IMG/VR virus record: IMGVR_UViG_2529292977_000006
From: a virus
Lineage: Duplodnaviria; Heunggongvirae; Uroviricota; Caudoviricetes
Strand: one strand, 5' to 3'
Length of the DNA: 4,250 bases
The position numbers were made by a program, and so were the translations under genes. Below the pieces are notes generated by a model. The model saw only the letters and a list, made by a program, of their open reading frames with translations. It was not told where the DNA came from and did no database searches. Shown in pieces: positions 1 through 4,250 of the stretch. Positions within the stretch are counted from its first letter, which is position 1; each line of letters begins with the position of its first letter.

Positions 1-582
1 TTATCAGCAACGGAAACGGCCTGGAAGCTGTGGGAACTTATGGGGGAGGTGTATTCGAACCGCTGGACCCAGAAGAACGGGGCTGCGCCGTCGAAGCTCT
101 GGATTGCTCAGATTGGCGCGATGACTGAACAGCAAATCCGGCAGGTCTGCCGTCAGTGCATGGACCGCTGCCGGGCGGGTGAAACGTGGCCTCCGGACCT
201 GGCTGAGTTTGTGGCGTTGATTTCGGAGAGCGGGGCAAATCCATTTGGCCTGACGGTGGATGCCGTGATGGAGGAGTACCGTCGCTGGAGGAATGAATCC
301 TGGCGGTACGACGGGAGTGATAAATACCCGTGGCCACAGCCGGTGCTGTACCACATTTGCCTCGAGATGCGTGACAGAGGGATTGAGCGGCAGATGACGG
401 AAGGTGAGTTAAAACGACTTGCAGAACGGCAACTGACGAAATGGGCAAAGCAAGTTGGTAACGGGATGAGTATTCCCCCGATCCGGAGACAACTCGCATC
501 GCCGAAGTGCCCGCAAGGGCCAACGCCAATTGAATTACTGAAACAGGAATACGAGCGCCGGAAGGCGGCTGGTTTTGTTTGA
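1..582 (+). CDS. Replication protein P-like (lambda P family helicase loader), 5'-truncated by the window edge
   Basis: The reading frame is open from base 1 (LSATETAWKLWEL precedes the first ATG at 40) and ends at TGA 580-582. The translation resembles the central and C-terminal part of lambda P as I recall it: PPDLAEFVALISE vs PSPGQFVAWCRE, a conserved YPW, and IPPIRRQLASP vs IPEPVKQLPV near the C-terminus. Minus-strand ORFs overlapping it are judged spurious. Confidence 0.7.
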   Translation, partial: LSATETAWKLWELMGEVYSNRWTQKNGAAPSKLWIAQIGAMTEQQIRQVCRQCMDRCRAGETWPPDLAEFVALISESGANPFGLTVDAVMEEYRRWRNESWRYDGSDKYPWPQPVLYHICLEMRDRGIERQMTEGELKRLAERQLTKWAKQVGNGMSIPPIRRQLASPKCPQGPTPIELLKQEYERRKAAGFV

Positions 583-615
583 ATCTGAGAAACGATTTTG
601 TCGGAGGAAATTTTA

Positions 616-1332
616 ATGGAAACCGTATCTGACGCACTGAAAGCACTGAAAAGAGCCTCTTCACATGTGGTGGCAGCTCGCCTTGGAATTAGTCGTGAAG
701 AGGCTGTCAACGAACTGTGGAAACTGAAACGCCGTGGAGAAGCGGATAACAAGGGGGCGATATGGTGGCTGACTCAGGCTGGTGAAAGTGAACCGGTGTC
801 ACCGGTACCGAAAGTGACGGCGCAAATGCTGACAGAGGCGATTGAACAACATGGCCCACAAACGGCGGATGAACTGGCATTGATGTTCGGAATTACCTCC
901 CGCCGGGCGAATTCATCGCTGGCAATGGCAATCAGCAAAGGGTGTCTGATTCGCGTGAATCAGGATGGTAAATTTCGTTACTGCATACCGGGCGTTGATT
1001 TACCGGCAGAGCCGAAAGCAGCATCCGTAGCTGAAACGGAGGGTAAAGCCCTTCCTCAGCCAGCTGGTGTTGCGTTACCAGTCCAGGAAACGGCTGCACA
1101 GGAAGAAATTAAAACAGAAGCGGTGGAGGACATTGTGAAGTTGCAGCAATCGTTCACTGAAGCGAAAGCAGATGACCTGATTCTACCATCGCTGCATGTG
1201 GCTAACCGCGAGCTGCGCCGGGCGAAAAGTAATGTTCAGAAGTGGGAGCGAGTCTGTGCTGCGCTACGGGAACTGAACAAACACAGGGATATTCTCCGGG
1301 ATATTACCGCCACCAGAGAGCAGCAGCGGTGA
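616..1332 (+). CDS. Hypothetical protein with two tandem winged-helix-like modules, a Pro/Ala-rich linker and a C-terminal coiled-coil-like tail; occupies the position of ren
   Basis: ATG at 616 is preceded by GGAGG (603-607) at 8 nt; the TTG at 598 used by the ORF track has no SD. Stop TGA at 1330-1332. Two segments have a similar HTH-then-basic-wing pattern (residues ~10-50 and ~75-125), followed by [26 protein letters not shown] and a charged helical tail. It sits immediately downstream of P, as ren does in lambda. Confidence 0.6.
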
Positions 1333-1646
1333 GTGGCTGGAAGAAGTGGCGCTGGGCTGAAATCCTGATACTCCGGCAGTGTGCGGGAACGATGAGAGTC
1401 GAAAGCATCGGTTATCTGATTGGCCGTAGTGAGTCAGCCGTCAGGACGAAAGCGCGGGAACTGGGTATCAGCATGATGTTACGGGGTGATTATCACCAGT
1501 CAGCCAAATGTTCACAGCGTGATATTGAGCTGGCGTGGCAACTGCATCAGCGTGGTGTACCCCGACGGGAAATTGCCGAAAAGTTTGGGATGAAGTTGGG
1601 CGCAGTGAATAACTACGTTTATTTCGACAGGAGGGTTCAGGAGTGA
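1329..1646 (+). CDS. Small helix-turn-helix DNA-binding protein (hypothetical)
   Basis: ORF in frame 0 ending at TGA 1644-1646. GTG at 1329 overlaps the upstream stop (GTGA), a typical coupling arrangement; the alternative start is ATG 1392. The ATG at 1242 would overlap the upstream gene by 90 nt and is rejected. Two HTH-like segments: [21 protein letters not shown] and [21 protein letters not shown]. Confidence 0.5.
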
Positions 1647-1945
1647 GGGTGAGGGTTTATATCGCCGGTCCGATGACGGGATATGAAAATTTTAACCGCG
1701 AGGCATTTCACAAAACGGAAGAGGTGCTGAAACGGGAAGGGCATACCGTTTTAAACCCGGCAGTACTTCCGGACGGGCTGACTCAGCCACACTACATGGA
1801 TATTTGCATGGCAATGCTCCGTTGCGTGGATGCGGTTTACATGCTGAAAGGCTGGCAGCAGTCGGCAGGTGCAGGGGCTGAGCTGGCACTGGAGGAGAAA
1901 CCGGGCCATGCGGTGATTTTTCAGGAGGTGGGCAGTGAATATTGA
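1643..1945 (+). CDS. DUF4406-like protein (nucleoside 2-deoxyribosyltransferase-like fold)
   Basis: GTG at 1643 overlaps the upstream TGA (GTGA) and is preceded by AGGAGG (1629-1634) at 8 nt; stop TGA 1943-1945. The ~100-aa product starts VYIAGPMTGYENFNREAF, which matches my memory of the N-terminal YIAG-x-(I/M)TG motif of DUF4406 / deoxyribosyltransferase-like proteins. This is recall, not a search. Confidence 0.6.
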   Translation: MRVRVYIAGPMTGYENFNREAFHKTEEVLKREGHTVLNPAVLPDGLTQPHYMDICMAMLRCVDAVYMLKGWQQSAGAGAELALEEKPGHAVIFQEVGSEY

Positions 1946-2252
1946 CCCGGCGATAACGATTGATATGGCCCTGAACGCCGGCCTGGCACTTCTTGGTTAT
2001 TTCTACATTATGTTCTGCAGCGGACGATGGCTGTCACTGTTGTTCATGAAAAAATGGAATAAACGCCGTAAGCAGGAGCAACGCCAGAAGGCAATGGATG
2101 CATTTTTCGAAGCCTTCGGAATTGACGGCATGGAACCAGGGGATCCAGCTCGCGCAATCAGCAGAGGGGGTGTAGTAATCCTTGTATATCGGAGTGAAGA
2201 GAAAAATGACGATCACAAAACAACGTGTAGAAGAAATCATATCCCGCATTGA
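1935..2252 (+). CDS. Small membrane protein (hypothetical), one predicted TM helix followed by a basic stretch
   Basis: GTG at 1935 with AGGAGG (1923-1928) at 6 nt; it overlaps the upstream gene by 11 nt. Hydrophobic segment ALNAGLALLGYFYIMFCSGRWLSLLF followed by KKWNKRRKQEQRQK. Stop at 2250-2252. The 3' end overlaps the next gene by 47 nt, so the true C-terminus is uncertain. Confidence 0.45.
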   Translation: MNIDPAITIDMALNAGLALLGYFYIMFCSGRWLSLLFMKKWNKRRKQEQRQKAMDAFFEAFGIDGMEPGDPARAISRGGVVILVYRSEEKNDDHKTTCRRNHIPH

Positions 2253-2523
2253 AATGTATGGACATGGTGCAGGGTATATCGCAGACGAGGTTAATGATCT
2301 GGCTATACTGGCGCTGAATTTATCAAATATCGCGAACCTGAAGCGATACGAGCTTGATATGGGAGGTTGCGACTCGTGCGGTCAGGATTGTGGCGCTGAT
2401 ATGACTGAAGATCCTGATGGTGATTATGTCCTGTTTGATGACGTGGTTAAGTTGTTTGAATTTGATACAACCACTCAAAAGTTAGAAATCCCGGCAAAGG
2501 AGGCAGCCAGTGGGCAAGATTGA
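2206..2523 (+). CDS. Hypothetical acidic protein with a Cys-rich knuckle (GGCDSCGQDCG); N-terminus paralogous to the 3143..3700 product
   Basis: ATG 2206 is chosen over the TTG at 2182 because the resulting N-terminus MTITKQRVEEIISRIEMYGHGAG aligns with MTTITKDRLLTIQHWRETYGPGS of the gene at 3143. Stop TGA 2521-2523. Weak SD (GGAG at 2191-2194). Confidence 0.55.
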   Translation: MTITKQRVEEIISRIEMYGHGAGYIADEVNDLAILALNLSNIANLKRYELDMGGCDSCGQDCGADMTEDPDGDYVLFDDVVKLFEFDTTTQKLEIPAKEAASGQD

Positions 2524-2947
2524 CTATCAGGCACTGCGTGAGGCAGCACAAAACTATCAATCGACGCTGGCGTGGTATCAGGCTACCCCGGACAGCCCAA
2601 ATGCTGAACGGGATTGTGATGCGGCTCTTGCTGCGTTTAAGCGTCACATCCGTCATCGGGAAGCGGATATTATCGCTGATTTGCTGGATGGACTGGAAGA
2701 AGCAAAATCACAACTCAACGAGCAGCGTGAGTATTACGAAGGCGTTATCTCTGATGGGAGCAAGCGTATTGCTGAACTGGAAGCGCGGGAAGTTCAATTA
2801 CCGACTCGCTACGACCTTCGATATGGACACCCGATAAATGCAGATGAGCGACATGTCATGATACCTAAAGAAAATGGCAGTTGGCTTTACCTGATTGACC
2901 TAGAACACGCATTACGCGTCGCTGGCATTCGCATCAAAGGAGAGTGA
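2510..2947 (+). CDS. Ead/Ea22-like family protein (coiled-coil phage early protein)
   Basis: GTG at 2510 with AAGGAGG (2497-2503) at 6 nt, overlapping the upstream gene by 14 nt; stop TGA 2945-2947. N-terminal DYQALREAAQ, central EEAKSQLNEQREYYEGVISDGSKRIAELEAREV and C-terminal AGIRIKGE match what I recall of lambda Ea22 / P22 Ead-like proteins. From memory only. Confidence 0.6.
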   Translation: MGKIDYQALREAAQNYQSTLAWYQATPDSPNAERDCDAALAAFKRHIRHREADIIADLLDGLEEAKSQLNEQREYYEGVISDGSKRIAELEAREVQLPTRYDLRYGHPINADERHVMIPKENGSWLYLIDLEHALRVAGIRIKGE

Positions 2948-2948
2948 G

Positions 2949-3140
2949 ATGAACGGACAAATATCAATTGTTCGACCAGGAGCATGTGACGATCGCGAAA
3001 TACGAATGATTATTCGTCTGGCGATGGGGAAAACAATAACTGCTCTCATTACTCCAGAAAATCTCGCATTAGCATTAACAGGAAAGTCAGACATGCCAGT
3101 AGAGCTAAAGCTGCGAAATGTTGAGATTAAGGTGAAATAG
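2949..3140 (+). CDS. Hypothetical small protein (63 aa)
   Basis: ATG 2949 lies 1 nt after the upstream stop, with AAAGGAGAG (2937-2945) upstream; stop TAG 3138-3140. No recognisable motif; it is called on operon context and the ribosome-binding site. Confidence 0.5.
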   Translation: MNGQISIVRPGACDDREIRMIIRLAMGKTITALITPENLALALTGKSDMPVELKLRNVEIKVK

Positions 3141-3142
3141 CT

Positions 3143-3700
3143 ATGACCACTATTACCAAAGATCGACTGCTGACAATCCAGCATTGGCGCGAAACATACG
3201 GACCGGGTAGCAACGTTGTGCTTCCAGCAGAAGAAGCGGAAGAGCTGGCACGGATTGCGCTGGCATCACTGGCAGCAGTATCGGATGAACGAGCAGCCTA
3301 TGAATTATTTATGGAGAAGCGTTTCGGAGAATCTGTAGATCGCCGCAGAGCAAAAAATGGCGATAGAGATTACATGGTATGGGATATGGCGCTTGGCTGG
3401 ATTATCTGGTGTCACCGCGCCGCCATGCTTCAGGCTGGAAACTTTCGGGAAAATAAGGGTTCGTCAACCAATAATTTTCGGATAATCTCGGAAACGTCAA
3501 CCAACTCTCCGGCAATCCCTGATGAGGTGTTGTCCGCAATCCTGAAGGTCGCCAGGCTTCGTGCAGATTTCGATGCTTCTGAAGTGGACAGGCGAGGTAT
3601 CGGTAGTTGTCTGGATGAGGCCGAGCAAGAACTTATCGTTACCATTAACGAATACGCCAGTCAGATCGCAGTAGAAGCGACACAGGGGGAGAACCAATGA
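3143..3700 (+). CDS. Hypothetical protein (185 aa); N-terminus paralogous to the 2206..2523 product
   Basis: ATG 3143 lies 2 nt after the upstream stop, with AAGGTGA (3129-3135) upstream; stop TGA 3698-3700. Shares the N-terminal pattern MT(T)ITK-x-R...YG-x-G...AL with the gene at 2206. Confidence 0.6.
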   Translation: MTTITKDRLLTIQHWRETYGPGSNVVLPAEEAEELARIALASLAAVSDERAAYELFMEKRFGESVDRRRAKNGDRDYMVWDMALGWIIWCHRAAMLQAGNFRENKGSSTNNFRIISETSTNSPAIPDEVLSAILKVARLRADFDASEVDRRGIGSCLDEAEQELIVTINEYASQIAVEATQGENQ

Positions 3701-3774
3701 GCCGGCCAGATGCATTTGCAGGCGTTGCTATAGCTATTGCTTTTCTAGTATATGTTATTTGTCGGTGGGGGTAA
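3697..3774 (+). CDS. Candidate 25-aa hydrophobic micropeptide (MSRPDAFAGVAIAIAFLVYVICRWG)
   Basis: ATG 3697 overlaps the upstream stop (ATGA), with GGGGGA (3685-3690) at 6 nt; stop TAA 3772-3774. One short hydrophobic helix. Too short for the ORF track; the call rests only on coupling geometry, the SD and hydrophobicity. Confidence 0.3.
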   Translation: MSRPDAFAGVAIAIAFLVYVICRWG

Positions 3775-3809
3775 AAACGTTCGCCGGGATTCACACCAAG
3801 GGAGGGAAT

Positions 3810-3914
3810 ATGTCGGATGATATTTCACTGGTAATGGAAGGCGCTCTGGCTGTTATTGCTGTTGTGGGTGTTTACTGCCTGGTTGTGTTTTTGATGGAGC
3901 GCCTGGGGAACTGA
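3810..3914 (+). CDS. Candidate 34-aa small membrane peptide (MSDDISLVMEGALAVIAVVGVYCLVVFLMERLGN)
   Basis: ATG 3810 is preceded by a strong SD, AAGGGAGGG (3798-3806); stop TGA 3912-3914. One TM-like helix flanked by acidic N-terminal and charged C-terminal residues. Not in the ORF track because of its length. Confidence 0.45.
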   Translation: MSDDISLVMEGALAVIAVVGVYCLVVFLMERLGN

Positions 3915-3924
3915 ATTCATTCCG

Positions 3925-3940
3925 TATGGGAATTCCCATA
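3925..3940. promoter_or_regulatory. 16-bp perfect palindrome TATGGGAATTCCCATA (candidate operator or weak hairpin)
   Basis: The sequence equals its own reverse complement. It lies 11 nt after the stop of the 34-aa ORF and about 15 nt upstream of the candidate hok promoter -35. There is no following T-tract, so a classical intrinsic terminator is unlikely. Confidence 0.3.
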
Positions 3941-3954
3941 TCGGGCAAAACGGT

Positions 3955-3982
3955 TTGCTGTAAAGCGAGAGTTAAGTAGAAT
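3955..3982 (+). promoter_or_regulatory. Candidate sigma70 promoter for the hok transcript
   Basis: -35 TTGCTG (3955-3960), 16-bp spacer, -10 TAGAAT (3977-3982). This would give a leader of about 170 nt before the hok ATG, in line with the long structured leaders of hok mRNAs. Confidence 0.3.
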
Positions 3983-4000
3983 TGCTGCGGGTGCTTGAGG

Positions 4001-4036
4001 CTGTCTGCCTCGGGCATGCCACCGTAAGGCAGACAG
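4001..4036 (+). other. Stable hairpin in the presumed hok mRNA leader (10-bp perfect stem, 16-nt loop)
   Basis: CTGTCTGCCT (4001-4010) is the exact reverse complement of AGGCAGACAG (4027-4036). It is not followed by a U-tract. Confidence 0.35.
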
Positions 4037-4157
4037 AGAAAAGCCCCAGTTAACATTACGCGTCCTGCAAGACGCTTAACATTAATCTGAGGCCCAATCT
4101 ATGCTTCACAAACGTAGGTTAGCCTCTTACGCGCCGAAAGGCAAGGAGAAGCAGGTT

Positions 4158-4250
4158 ATGAAGCAGCAAAAGGCGATGTTAATCGCCCTGATCGTCATCT
4201 GTTTAACCGTCATAGTGACGGCACTGGTAACGAGGAAAGACCTCTGCGAG
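4158..4250 (+). CDS. hok: Hok-family type I toxin (HokD/RelF-like), 3'-truncated by the window edge
   Basis: ATG 4158 is preceded by AAGGAGAAG (4142-4150). The translation MKQQKAMLIALIVICLTVIVTALVTRKDLCE matches the N-terminus of E. coli HokD/RelF as I remember it, including the TM helix and the conserved Cys. An in-frame ATG at 4101 with its own SD lies upstream. Confidence 0.75.
   Translation, partial: MKQQKAMLIALIVICLTVIVTALVTRKDLCE

What the first reader, a model, noticed from the sequence alone, without database searches (positions are those of the whole stretch)
4158..4250. Hok-family type I toxin gene (HokD/RelF-like N-terminus) on a lambdoid prophage, apparently without a relBE partner upstream
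The first 31 residues match my recollection of HokD/RelF. In E. coli K-12 that gene follows relB-relE in the Qin prophage. Here the upstream neighbours are instead two micropeptide ORFs and a palindrome, so this copy would be a stand-alone hok-type locus with its own leader. Such loci can stabilise the prophage or act in abortive infection. The gene is cut by the window edge, so its intactness is unknown.
Basis: partly seen in the sequence, partly recalled or inferred. Interest (0 to 1): 0.45.

Follow-up and report, generated by a model that had tools for sequence, protein, structure and literature searches.

The report
Intact hokD/sok toxin–antitoxin locus in prophage
The window ends in the first 31 codons of a well-known small membrane toxin gene (hokD), preceded by its complete, already-described RNA control region (hok promoter, mok leader frame, antisense sok antitoxin gene); about 73% of complete E. 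coli genomes carry a locus of this type, so it is ordinary.

Summary
Window 4158-4250 encodes MKQQKAMLIALIVICLTVIVTALVTRKDLCE. This matches Pfam Hok/Gef (E 5.6e-11). It is identical to residues 1-31 of E. coli K-12 HokD/RelF, and the full ORF in a 100%-identical locus matches K-12 HokD 51/51.

This is a stand-alone hok locus with its own leader, in the early region of a lambdoid (Rac/Qin-like) prophage, and there is no relBE upstream.

The roughly 200 nt before the gene (3955-4157) hold the canonical hok/sok regulatory module:
- a weak hok promoter;
- the mRNA 5' end (tac);
- the anti-SD box (ucb);
- an antisense Sok gene (4109→4039, minus strand) with its own promoter;
- the mok SD and ATG (4101, in frame with hok).

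Rfam RF01794 scores 114.9 bits here. In identical loci the 3' fbi element and the terminator are present. Predicted folds reproduce the closed-to-open mRNA switch described for plasmid R1.

None of this is new. RefSeq already annotates the gene as hokD. Loci with at least 80% coverage of promoter, leader, hok and 3' UTR occur in 3947 of 5426 complete E. coli genomes. The 93%-identical hokW-sokW of phage 933W/Sp5 has been characterised experimentally. K-12 relBE-hokD is the rearranged exception. Interest is low.

The parts
3955..3982 (+). Putative hok promoter: -35 TTGCTG (3955-3960), 16-nt spacer, -10 TAGAAT (3977-3982), 6 nt before the predicted mRNA 5' end at 3989
   Evidence: Regex positions. 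Conserved in 933W hokW, and the -10 region also in K-12 hokC. It matches only 8 of 12 consensus positions, so the consensus scan did not list it. A weak hok promoter is the R1 paradigm (my own knowledge). The start site is inferred from the Rfam model start, not mapped.
3989..4000 (+). tac element (5' end of hok mRNA, GGGTGCTTGAGG). It pairs with the 3' fbi in the full-length mRNA and with ucb in the 3'-processed mRNA
   Evidence: Full-length fold: nt 1-12 pair with nt 375-387 (CCUCAACGCACCC, L001 6664-6676); dG -174.9, z -6.8. Truncated folds: nt 1-8 pair with nt 53-59. Invariant in 7 aligned loci.
3989..4047 (+). 5' stem-loop of the hok leader (tac-stem / metastable hairpin; inverted repeat 3990-4010 / 4027-4047)
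   Evidence: the repeat finder I1. Fold -32.5 kcal/mol, z -4.6. Part of the Rfam RF01794 match.
4042..4049 (+). ucb (anti-Shine-Dalgarno box AGCCCCAG), which sequesters the mok SD in the full-length mRNA
   Evidence: In the full-length MFE fold, SD bases G101, G103 and G104 pair with C59, C57 and C56 (window 4047, 4045, 4044). Invariant in the alignment.
4039..4109 (-). Sok antisense RNA gene (about 71 nt): a 14-nt single-stranded 5' tail complementary to the mok start region, a long hairpin, and a U tract
   Evidence: Coordinates transferred from the sokW misc_RNA annotated in 933W (L002 1593-1663, offset 2446). Fold: 5' tail free, hairpin -29.2 kcal/mol, z -5.2, ending in UUUU. Lies within the Rfam 'sok' RF01794 hit at 3989-4163, 114.9 bits against GA 59. 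K-12 sokC is annotated in the same relative position.
4116..4144 (-). Sok promoter: -35 TTGCCT (4144→4139), 17-nt spacer, -10 TAACCT (4121→4116); start about 7 nt downstream at 4109
   Evidence: Regex positions. Comparing mutagenic primers YO-421/YO-422 of PMC8621323 with the wild-type hokW sequence, I infer that their 'pro-less' sokW mutant changes TAGGTTA to CCGGCTC. That is the same heptamer as window 4115-4121, which is identical here. Not listed by the consensus scan, which requires 9 of 12 matches.
4089..4092 (+). mok Shine-Dalgarno GAGG, 8 nt before the mok ATG
   Evidence: Read from the sequence. The same GAGG motif is named as the mok SD in R1 (PMC9841398). Paired to ucb in the full-length fold and to dcb in the truncated fold.
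4101..4250 (+). mok reading frame: ATG 4101, then 19 codons (MLHKRRLASYAPKGKEKQV) running in frame into hok. It gives a 70-aa product in the complete locus and is cut by the window end
   Evidence: Translation. 933W mokW and K-12 mokC are annotated the same way, sharing the stop with hok. The ATG is conserved in 7 loci.
4123..4126 (+). dcb (downstream complementary box, CCUC), which pairs with the mok SD in the 3'-truncated mRNA
   Evidence: Truncated folds: SD 101-104 pairs with 135-138. This is in silico only.
4144..4148 (+). hok Shine-Dalgarno AGGAG, 9 nt before the hok ATG. K-12 Qin hokD homology begins here
   Evidence: Sequence. Alignment with K-12 shows identity starting at AGGAGAAGCAGG.
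4158..4250 (+). hok (hokD) toxin ORF, codons 1-31 of 51: N-terminal basic residues plus a transmembrane helix (AMLIALIVICLTVIVTALV). Cut by the window end
   Evidence: Pfam PF01848 E 5.6e-11 for the fragment and 1.2e-23 for the full protein. PHROG 251 'MokW-like host killing' E 2.8e-33. 51/51 identity to K-12 HokD in the identical locus L001. Mean Kyte-Doolittle hydropathy 3.07 over 19 aa.

Best explanation
Window 3955-4250 is the 5' two-thirds of an intact hok/sok-type type I toxin-antitoxin locus of the hokD/hokW subtype. It sits in the early-right (nin-like) region of a lambdoid prophage, between the replication genes and the DUF968-RusA-Q genes.

Proposed mechanism, by homology with plasmid R1 hok/sok and phage 933W/Sp5 hokW-sokW:

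1. A weak promoter (3955-3982) makes a stable hok mRNA of about 420 nt starting near 3989.
2. In the full-length RNA the 5' tac element pairs with the 3' fbi element, and the mok SD (4089-4092) is sequestered by ucb (4042-4049). The RNA is therefore neither translated nor bound by Sok.
3. Slow 3' trimming removes fbi. tac then pairs with ucb, and the mok SD moves to the dcb stem.
4. Ribosomes can now translate mok (ATG 4101). That translation is required to open the hok start site (4158).
5. A constitutively made, unstable antisense Sok RNA of about 71 nt (4109→4039, with its own promoter at 4144→4116) pairs through its free 5' tail with the mok start region. This blocks mok and hence hok translation and triggers RNase III cleavage.
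6. When Sok synthesis stops, the long-lived hok mRNA is translated. Sok synthesis could stop through loss of the element, a general transcription shut-off, or prophage induction. The 51-aa Hok peptide then inserts in the inner membrane and collapses the membrane potential.

Shown here: sequence identity, family membership, presence, position and conservation of every element, and predicted folds that switch as the model requires. Inferred: transcription start sites, RNA half-lives, toxicity in this host, and the biological role.
For: - Hok fragment: Pfam PF01848 E 5.6e-11. Full ORF in a 100%-identical locus: E 1.2e-23, and 51/51 identical to K-12 HokD.
- PHROG 251 'MokW-like host killing', E 2.8e-33.
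- Rfam RF01794 (sok) covers the full model, positions 1-157, at 3989-4163: 114.9 bits against gathering score 59, E 1.4e-26.
- 93.4% nucleotide identity over 3947-4250 to 933W, where mokW, hokW and sokW are annotated. hokW-sokW was shown experimentally to be a type I TA system whose antitoxin activity is lost when the sokW -10 element is mutated (PMC8621323). By my reading of their primers, that element is identical here.
- The predicted Sok RNA has a 14-nt free 5' tail, a hairpin and a U tract; z -5.2.
- Full-length mRNA fold: 5' nt 1-12 pair with nt 375-387, and the mok SD pairs with ucb; z -6.8. Removing about 45 or more nt from the 3' end switches the fold to tac/ucb and SD/dcb, exactly as described for R1 (model in PMC9841398).
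- Terminator hairpin plus T-run after hok in the identical locus.
- tac, ucb, mok SD/ATG, hok SD and fbi are conserved in 6 to 7 of 7 diverged loci.
- Overexpression of the HokD coding sequence is toxic (bioRxiv 10.1101/2025.08.07.668861).
Against: - The last 20 codons, fbi and the terminator are outside the window. They are taken from loci identical over 3700-4250, not from the source genome.
- Neither promoter reaches the 9-of-12 consensus threshold of the scan tool.
- tac and fbi are invariant among the loci compared, so there is conservation but no compensatory covariation.
- NCBIfam Hok models score below their curated cutoffs (48.5 against 73), although Pfam passes.
[quoted passage not shown] An intact sequence therefore does not prove activity.
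- hokD mRNA encodes Tyr where other Hok proteins have a conserved Cys. It is only about 6% A-to-I edited to Cys in K-12 (PMC12214031), which may limit potency.
Confidence: 0.9

Rival explanations
1. Same locus, specific role: a phage-benefit module. On prophage induction Sok disappears, Hok is made, and membrane damage advances lysis and raises phage release, as reported for hokW-sokW of Sp5.
For: hokW-sokW is 93.4% identical in leader and N-terminus. In Sp5 lysogens, sokW RNA vanished after mitomycin C, HokW appeared in a RecA-dependent way, and phage yield halved without the locus (PMC8621323). This locus lies co-oriented inside the early-right operon, so read-through early transcription would run head-on into the sok promoter (my inference).
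Against: hokW sits in a different part of its phage genome (near the right end of 933W), so the context differs. The effect reported was only two-fold. Many O157 prophages of this type are defective; the SS52 copy has truncated RusA and no intact Q nearby. Nothing was tested for this locus.
Confidence: 0.3
2. Same locus, specific role: an addiction (post-segregational killing) or abortive-infection module. It would stabilise the prophage or kill cells whose transcription is shut off by an infecting lytic phage, as R1 hok/sok does against T4.
For: This is the R1 paradigm, with all regulatory elements present. hok genes are about four-fold enriched in prophages (bioRxiv 10.1101/2025.08.07.668861). 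R1 hok/sok reduced T4 plating efficiency (cited in PMC8621323).
Against: Chromosomal hok loci tested earlier did not mediate PSK. These genomes carry up to 10 places matching the locus query (6 to 8 in the O157 genomes listed). Sok from other copies would probably cross-protect after loss of one prophage (inference). No enrichment of hok near defence systems was found.
Confidence: 0.25
3. The locus is intact in sequence but functionally silent: a selfish or hitch-hiking remnant carried along by mosaic prophage recombination, never producing toxic levels of Hok.
For: [quoted passage not shown] The Tyr47 codon needs editing to give the conserved Cys, and editing of hokD is low at 6%. The window is clearly mosaic: 1-3525 resembles one prophage and 3254-4250 another.
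Against: UTR elements (tac, ucb, SDs, fbi, sok promoter) are conserved as strongly as the coding sequence across loci 87-100% identical. This argues for selection on regulation. The HokD CDS is toxic when expressed, and the close relative hokW-sokW is active.
Confidence: 0.2
4. The 31-codon match is fortuitous and there is no hok gene.
For: None found.
Against: Pfam E 5.6e-11 on the fragment, 31/31 identity to K-12 HokD, an Rfam leader hit of 114.9 bits immediately upstream, and RefSeq annotation in hundreds of identical loci.
Confidence: 0.01

Closest known systems
hokW-sokW (with mokW) of Stx2 phage 933W / Sakai prophage Sp5
   Same: 93.4% nucleotide identity over window 3947-4250. Same promoter region, tac, ucb, sok gene and its -10 element, mok ATG in frame (70 aa), and hok SD. 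Hok residues 1-44 are identical. Experimentally a type I TA system (PMC8621323).
   Different: The Hok C-terminus differs (…VFVDYESEK against …VFTAYEPEE). The 3' end after fbi differs. The genomic position in the phage also differs: hokW lies near the right end of the 933W record among L0135-L0141, whereas this locus lies between the early-region accessory (nin-like) genes and DUF968-RusA-Q.
E. coli K-12 hokD (relF) in the relBE-hokD operon of cryptic prophage Qin
   Same: The protein is 51/51 identical. The DNA is near-identical from about 15 nt upstream of the hok ATG through fbi and the terminator. The downstream synteny is the same (small ORF, DUF968/ydfU, Q/ydfT).
   Different: K-12 lacks the hok promoter, tac, ucb, sok gene and promoter, and mok start. 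All of these are replaced by relB-relE, and hokD is co-transcribed with them (PMC3598666). The literature calls it inactivated by genomic rearrangement (PMC12214031). The window carries the unrearranged form.
hok/sok (parB) of plasmid R1
   Same: Same architecture and the same predicted RNA logic: tac/fbi, ucb/SD(mok), dcb, a mok leader of 19 codons before hok, an antisense Sok with a free 5' tail, and a GAGG mok SD. Same Pfam family.
   Different: Low protein identity: HokW and R1 Hok are 44% identical according to PMC8621323. In R1, mok is out of frame with hok (mok ATG at 116-118, hok ATG at 174-176, a distance of 58 nt). Here the distance is 57 nt and mok is in frame. R1 is plasmid-borne and has proven PSK.
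hokC (gef)/mokC/sokC of E. coli K-12
   Same: The leader aligns (tac identical; ucb, mok SD/ATG and hok SD conserved). mokC is in frame with hokC, and sokC is annotated antisense over the mok start.
   Different: The Sok hairpin region is shorter by 18 nt. The K-12 copy has IS186 inserted about 20 bp beyond the hokC stop. It is a core-chromosome locus, not a prophage locus.

Membership tests
Hok/Gef toxin family (Pfam PF01848) | Sequence match to the family HMM above the curated gathering score | tested here: met
   Fragment 42.3 bits and full ORF (identical locus) 82.9 bits, against a cutoff of 22. Full model coverage, positions 1-42 of 42. PHROG 251 E 2.8e-33. NCBIfam Hok subfamily model scores only 48.5 against a cutoff of 73.
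Hok/Gef toxin family (Pfam PF01848) | Peptide of about 50 aa with basic N-terminus, one transmembrane helix, and conserved Cys residues | tested here: met
   51 aa in the identical locus. KQQK N-terminus. TM segment AMLIALIVICLTVIVTALV with mean hydropathy 3.07. Cys15 and Cys30 present. The third conserved Cys position is Tyr47 (UAC), reported to be recoded by A-to-I editing in hokD.
Hok/Gef toxin family (Pfam PF01848) | Toxic to the cell when expressed (membrane depolarisation) | not testable with these tools
   Literature only. The HokD CDS was toxic in the bioRxiv survey, and HokW is toxic and located in the inner membrane (PMC8621323).
[quoted passage not shown] | Cis-encoded antisense Sok RNA gene with its own promoter, overlapping the mok translation initiation region | tested here: met
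   Rfam RF01794 114.9 bits. Positional homology to the annotated sokW and sokC. TTGCCT-17-TAACCT promoter. Free 5' tail, hairpin and U tract. Expression was not tested.
[quoted passage not shown] | mok leader frame with its own SD, starting about 19 codons upstream of hok and overlapping it | tested here: met
   GAGG 4089-4092 and ATG 4101, 57 nt before the hok ATG. Conserved in 7 loci.
[quoted passage not shown] | Long-range 5' tac / 3' fbi pairing that locks the full-length mRNA | tested here: met
   Tested on the identical locus L001, because fbi lies outside the window. Nt 1-12 pair with nt 375-387 in both the MFE and the centroid structure. Both elements are present in 6 of 7 loci. There is no covariation, because both are invariant.
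[quoted passage not shown] | Refolding after 3' processing (tac/ucb and SD(mok)/dcb), which permits Sok binding and mok translation | tested here: met
   In silico only. Truncation to L001 6660 or shorter switches the MFE fold as in the model. The processing itself was not tested.
[quoted passage not shown] | Stable toxin mRNA and unstable antitoxin RNA, with killing after transcription stops or the element is lost | not testable with these tools
   Needs rifampicin chase, Northern blots and PSK assays. Earlier tests on other chromosomal hok loci were negative.
relBE-hokD (relBEF) operon arrangement of K-12 Qin | hokD immediately preceded by, and co-transcribed with, relB-relE, without a sok/mok leader | tested here: not met
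   Upstream of the hok SD the window has no similarity to K-12. No RelB or RelE ORF was seen in the window.

The most novel reading that the evidence does not exclude
The locus lies co-oriented inside the prophage early-right operon, with the sok promoter firing head-on against it. Antiterminated early transcription after induction could therefore both silence Sok by transcriptional interference and produce hok transcripts that lack the native tac 5' end. This would escape the fold-back lock and give an induction-coupled, holin-like helper. The K-12 relBE-hokD fusion, in which hokD is likewise expressed only as a read-through 3' cistron, would be a fossil of the same logic. Related to this, the free variation of the mok register among near-identical loci (in frame, +1, or a stop overlapping the hok ATG) would make this family a natural experiment on translational coupling.
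Probability: 0.12. Interest if true: 0.4.

Novelty: already known. Interest (0 to 1): 0.08.

Why it matters
It matters little as a discovery. hok/sok loci in lambdoid prophages of pathogenic E. coli were annotated in the 933W genome record AF125520. One has been characterised experimentally (hokW-sokW). hok enrichment in prophages has been surveyed. This exact sequence is already named hokD in RefSeq.

The result is useful for annotation. It shows that the common hokD locus is a complete type I TA module and that the textbook K-12 relBE-hokD arrangement is the rearranged exception. It also places the sok, mok and promoter features, which genome annotations omit.

Tried and rejected
- The consensus promoter/terminator scan found the hok terminator but neither the hok nor the sok promoter. 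Both fall below its 9-of-12 threshold. I placed them by regex, by conservation, and by the published sokW -10 mutation instead.
- I looked for compensatory covariation in tac/fbi and ucb/SD by fetching five more loci, including P1/IncY-type plasmid copies at about 88% identity. The paired elements are invariant except for one bulged C/T in fbi. This shows conservation but gives no covariation evidence.
- The NCBIfam Hok models scored below their cutoffs, so I used Pfam and PHROGs for membership.
- The two upstream micro-ORFs gave no hit in Pfam, NCBIfam or PHROGs. I did not pursue them further.
- The Rfam hit to snoRNA ceN48 (E 0.99, 20.9 bits against 70) was rejected as chance.
- Minus-strand ORFs overlapping the locus (3853-4056, 67 aa; 4127-4213, 28 aa) were rejected as antisense shadows of the hok leader and CDS.
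- The review PMC2593563 was not held. The Pedersen & Gerdes 1999 paper on multiple chromosomal hok genes could only be cited second-hand through.
- The large protein databases, structure prediction and metagenome scans were not used. The identity was settled without them.

Full report
**Observation**

The window ends with an open frame that starts at ATG 4158 and runs off the edge. It translates to MKQQKAMLIALIVICLTVIVTALVTRKDLCE.

- The 31-residue fragment matches Pfam PF01848 (Hok/Gef) at E 5.6e-11, 42.3 bits against a gathering score of 22.
- Window 3700-4250 is 100% identical to many E. coli O157:H7, O26 and other chromosomes. RefSeq annotates the gene there as 'type I toxin-antitoxin system toxin HokD'.
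- In one such locus (L001, strain PV15-279; L001 coordinate = window + 2301) the ORF is complete at 51 aa.
- That ORF is 51/51 identical to K-12 MG1655 HokD b1562, which does lie directly downstream of relB-relE in cryptic prophage Qin.

The last 20 codons are outside the window, so intactness in the source genome is inferred from identical loci.

**Surroundings**

The window is the early-right region of a Rac/Qin-like lambdoid prophage. The best full-length match is O157:H7 SS52. The gene order there is:

- RacR-type repressor, YdaS/YdaT-like, DnaT-like, replication protein P;
- DUF1627, DUF4406, DUF4752, Ea22-like, DUF551;
- a 34-aa hydrophobic ORF;
- hokD;
- a small ORF, DUF968, RusA, Q.

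The window is mosaic. Positions 1-3525 are 99.7% identical to the SS52 prophage. Positions 3254-4250 are 99.4% identical to the PV15-279 prophage, whose earlier genes differ. No relB or relE ORF is present.

**What lies between the micro-ORFs and hok**

The roughly 200 nt before the gene are the canonical hok/sok regulatory region, not spacer. Rfam RF01794 ('sok antitoxin') matches 3989-4163 on the + strand over its whole length: 114.9 bits, gathering score 59, E 1.4e-26. The model is written in the sense of the hok mRNA leader. The Sok RNA itself is antisense, as annotated for sokW in 933W and sokC in K-12.

Element by element:

- **hok promoter.** TTGCTG (3955-3960), 16-nt spacer, TAGAAT (3977-3982), 6 nt before the predicted 5' end at 3989. 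It is weak by consensus and was not listed by the scan tool.
- **tac.** GGGTGCTTGAGG, 3989-4000.
- **5' stem-loop.** 3989-4047; -32.5 kcal/mol, z -4.6.
- **ucb (anti-SD).** AGCCCCAG, 4042-4049.
- **mok SD and start.** GAGG at 4089-4092 and ATG at 4101.
- **dcb.** CCTC, 4123-4126.
- **hok SD.** AGGAG, 4144-4148.
- **Sok promoter (minus strand).** TTGCCT (4144→4139), 17-nt spacer, TAACCT (4121→4116).
- **Sok RNA.** 4109→4039, by transfer of the 933W sokW coordinates. It folds into a 14-nt free 5' tail (GUGAAGCAUAGAUU, complementary to the mok start codon region), a long hairpin and UUUU; -29.2 kcal/mol, z -5.2.

I compared mutagenic primers YO-421 and YO-422 in PMC8621323 with the wild-type hokW sequence. 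From this I infer that their promoter-less sokW mutant changes TAGGTTA to CCGGCTC. That is the heptamer identical to window 4115-4121. The -10 element I assign therefore appears to be the one shown experimentally to be needed for antitoxin activity in the 93%-identical relative.

**mok**

The mok ATG at 4101 is 57 nt before the hok ATG, so it is in frame. The product would be a 70-aa N-terminally extended Hok. 933W mokW and K-12 mokC are annotated the same way.

In R1 the distance is 58 nt, from the positions given in PMC9841398, so mok is out of frame there.

**The 3' part and the RNA switch**

In the identical locus L001, hok is followed by CCTCAACGCACCC (fbi, L001 6664-6676) and an intrinsic terminator at 6683-6700 plus a T-run.

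- Folding the 419-nt full-length RNA gives -174.9 kcal/mol, z -6.8.
- In that fold nt 1-12 pair with nt 375-387 (tac/fbi), and the mok SD pairs with ucb.
- Truncating the 3' end to L001 6660 or shorter switches the MFE fold. tac now pairs with ucb (nt 53-59), and the mok SD pairs with dcb (nt 135-138).

This is the closed-to-open rearrangement described for R1 hok mRNA (PMC9841398). These are predictions, not measurements.

**Comparison with relatives**

- **933W hokW-mokW-sokW.** 93.4% identical over window 3947-4250. Hok differs only in the last 8 residues.
- **K-12 Qin hokD.** Identity starts only at AGGAGAAGCAGG, about 15 nt before the hok ATG, and continues through fbi and the terminator. 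Everything upstream (promoter, tac, ucb, sok, sok promoter, mok start) is replaced by relBE. This agrees with the literature statement that hokD was inactivated by genomic rearrangement (PMC12214031) and is co-transcribed with relBE (PMC3598666). Downstream synteny (small ORF, DUF968/ydfU, Q/ydfT) is shared. The K-12 gene is therefore a positional orthologue, and the window shows the unrearranged state.
- **K-12 hokC.** Its leader aligns with the same landmarks.
- **Seven-locus alignment.** Across loci 87-100% identical, including P1/IncY-like plasmids, tac, ucb, both SDs, the mok ATG and fbi are conserved as strongly as the coding sequence. Because they are invariant, there is no compensatory covariation to count.

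**How common it is**

A query covering promoter, leader, hok and 3' UTR (463 nt) finds a place with at least 80% coverage in 3947 of 5426 complete E. coli genomes. There are up to 10 matching places per genome. It also hits 606 plasmids, most of them typed non-mobilizable; the three I examined were 86-143 kb IncY or IncHI1B replicons. A 2026 bioRxiv survey reports Hok in about 80% of Enterobacteriaceae genomes and a four-fold enrichment in prophages. The stand-alone arrangement is thus the norm.

**Mechanism and role**

I commit to the R1/hokW mechanism: a stable, self-locked toxin mRNA, 3' processing, mok-coupled hok translation, and repression by an unstable antisense Sok. Confidence is 0.9 for the identity and architecture.

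The biological role is less certain. Candidates are:

- assistance to lysis and phage release on induction, as shown two-fold for hokW-sokW (PMC8621323);
- prophage addiction or abortive infection, as for R1 hok/sok against T4 (cited);
- silence, since chromosomal hokA, hokB and hokC loci failed PSK tests.

Two further points are inference only. The multiple near-identical sok copies per genome make cross-protection likely, which weakens a simple addiction role. The locus is co-oriented with the early operon, with sok firing against it, so induction-coupled relief by transcriptional interference is conceivable but untested.

**Verdict**

The feature is a textbook, already annotated hok/sok locus, so novelty is 'already known' and interest is low (0.08).

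- the leader with sok and mok, not the micro-ORFs and palindrome, is the immediate upstream neighbour;
- mok is visible in the window and is in frame with hok;
- the lack of relBE is the usual state, not a peculiarity.

Noticed in passing
window 4101-4160; loci L002, L006, L007, L008, L009, L010 (alignment A3): Among near-identical hokD-type loci the mok ATG and about 19 upstream codons are kept, but the mok register relative to hok takes all three values. It is in frame here, in 933W hokW and in K-12 hokC (70-aa Mok = extended Hok). It is +1 in the P1/IncY-like plasmid copies (68-aa out-of-frame Mok, 58 nt as in R1). It is +2 in two chromosomal copies, where a 19-codon Mok ends in a TGA overlapping the hok ATG (CTATGA). 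This fits the published view that only mok translation up to the hok start matters (PMC9841398).
   Followed up: partly
window 3697-3774 and 3810-3914 (+): Two small hydrophobic ORFs lie upstream of the hok promoter. One is 25 aa (MSRPDAFAGVAIAIAFLVYVICRWG); its ATG overlaps the stop of the DUF551 gene as ATGA. The other is 34 aa (MSDDISLVMEGALAVIAVVGVYCLVVFLMERLGN) and is annotated in RefSeq as hypothetical WP_001278460.1. Each has one TM-like segment, and neither has a hit in Pfam, NCBIfam or PHROGs.
   Followed up: partly
window 3925-3940: A perfect 16-bp palindrome TATGGGAATTCCCATA (with an EcoRI site at its centre) lies between the 34-aa ORF stop and the hok -35. The hairpin fold of 3905-3960 is -19.6 kcal/mol, z -2.8, with no T-run. 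It lies outside the conserved hok module, because 933W homology starts at 3947. It could be a protein-binding site or a module junction.
   Followed up: partly
L001 6597-6599 (46 codons downstream of the hok ATG; outside the window): The Tyr47 codon sits in GCUUACGAA. hokD mRNA is reported to be A-to-I edited (about 6% in K-12), with the conserved Cys near the C-terminus of HokC/D/E being editing-coded (PMC12214031). I infer that this UAC, in a UACG context, is that site; TadA is named as the editing enzyme for hokB. The codon is conserved in all 7 aligned loci.
   Followed up: no
window 1-4250 versus L004 and L001: The window is a recombinant mosaic. Positions 1-3525 are 99.7% identical to the O157:H7 SS52 prophage, while 3254-4250 are 99.4% identical to the PV15-279 prophage. 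SS52 is only 94.7% identical over 3711-4250 and encodes a HokD variant (L16I).
   Followed up: partly
L008 (plasmid pRHB30-C16_3), about 20 nt after the hok stop: This IncY plasmid copy keeps the promoter, leader, sok, mok and hok but loses homology before fbi. It would therefore lack the fold-back lock. It may be deregulated or dead.
   Followed up: no
phage record PP818812.1 (hit H32): A record labelled 'Actinobacillus phage vB_Apl-pPE4' carries a hok locus 94.8% identical to this E. coli prophage locus. The host label is surprising for such a close match.
   Followed up: no
L003 (K-12 Qin) versus window 4139-4148: The breakpoint of the K-12 relBE-hokD rearrangement falls inside the sok promoter -35 (AGGCAA on the + strand, 4139-4144), immediately before the hok SD. 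The hok SD, CDS, fbi and terminator are left intact.
   Followed up: yes
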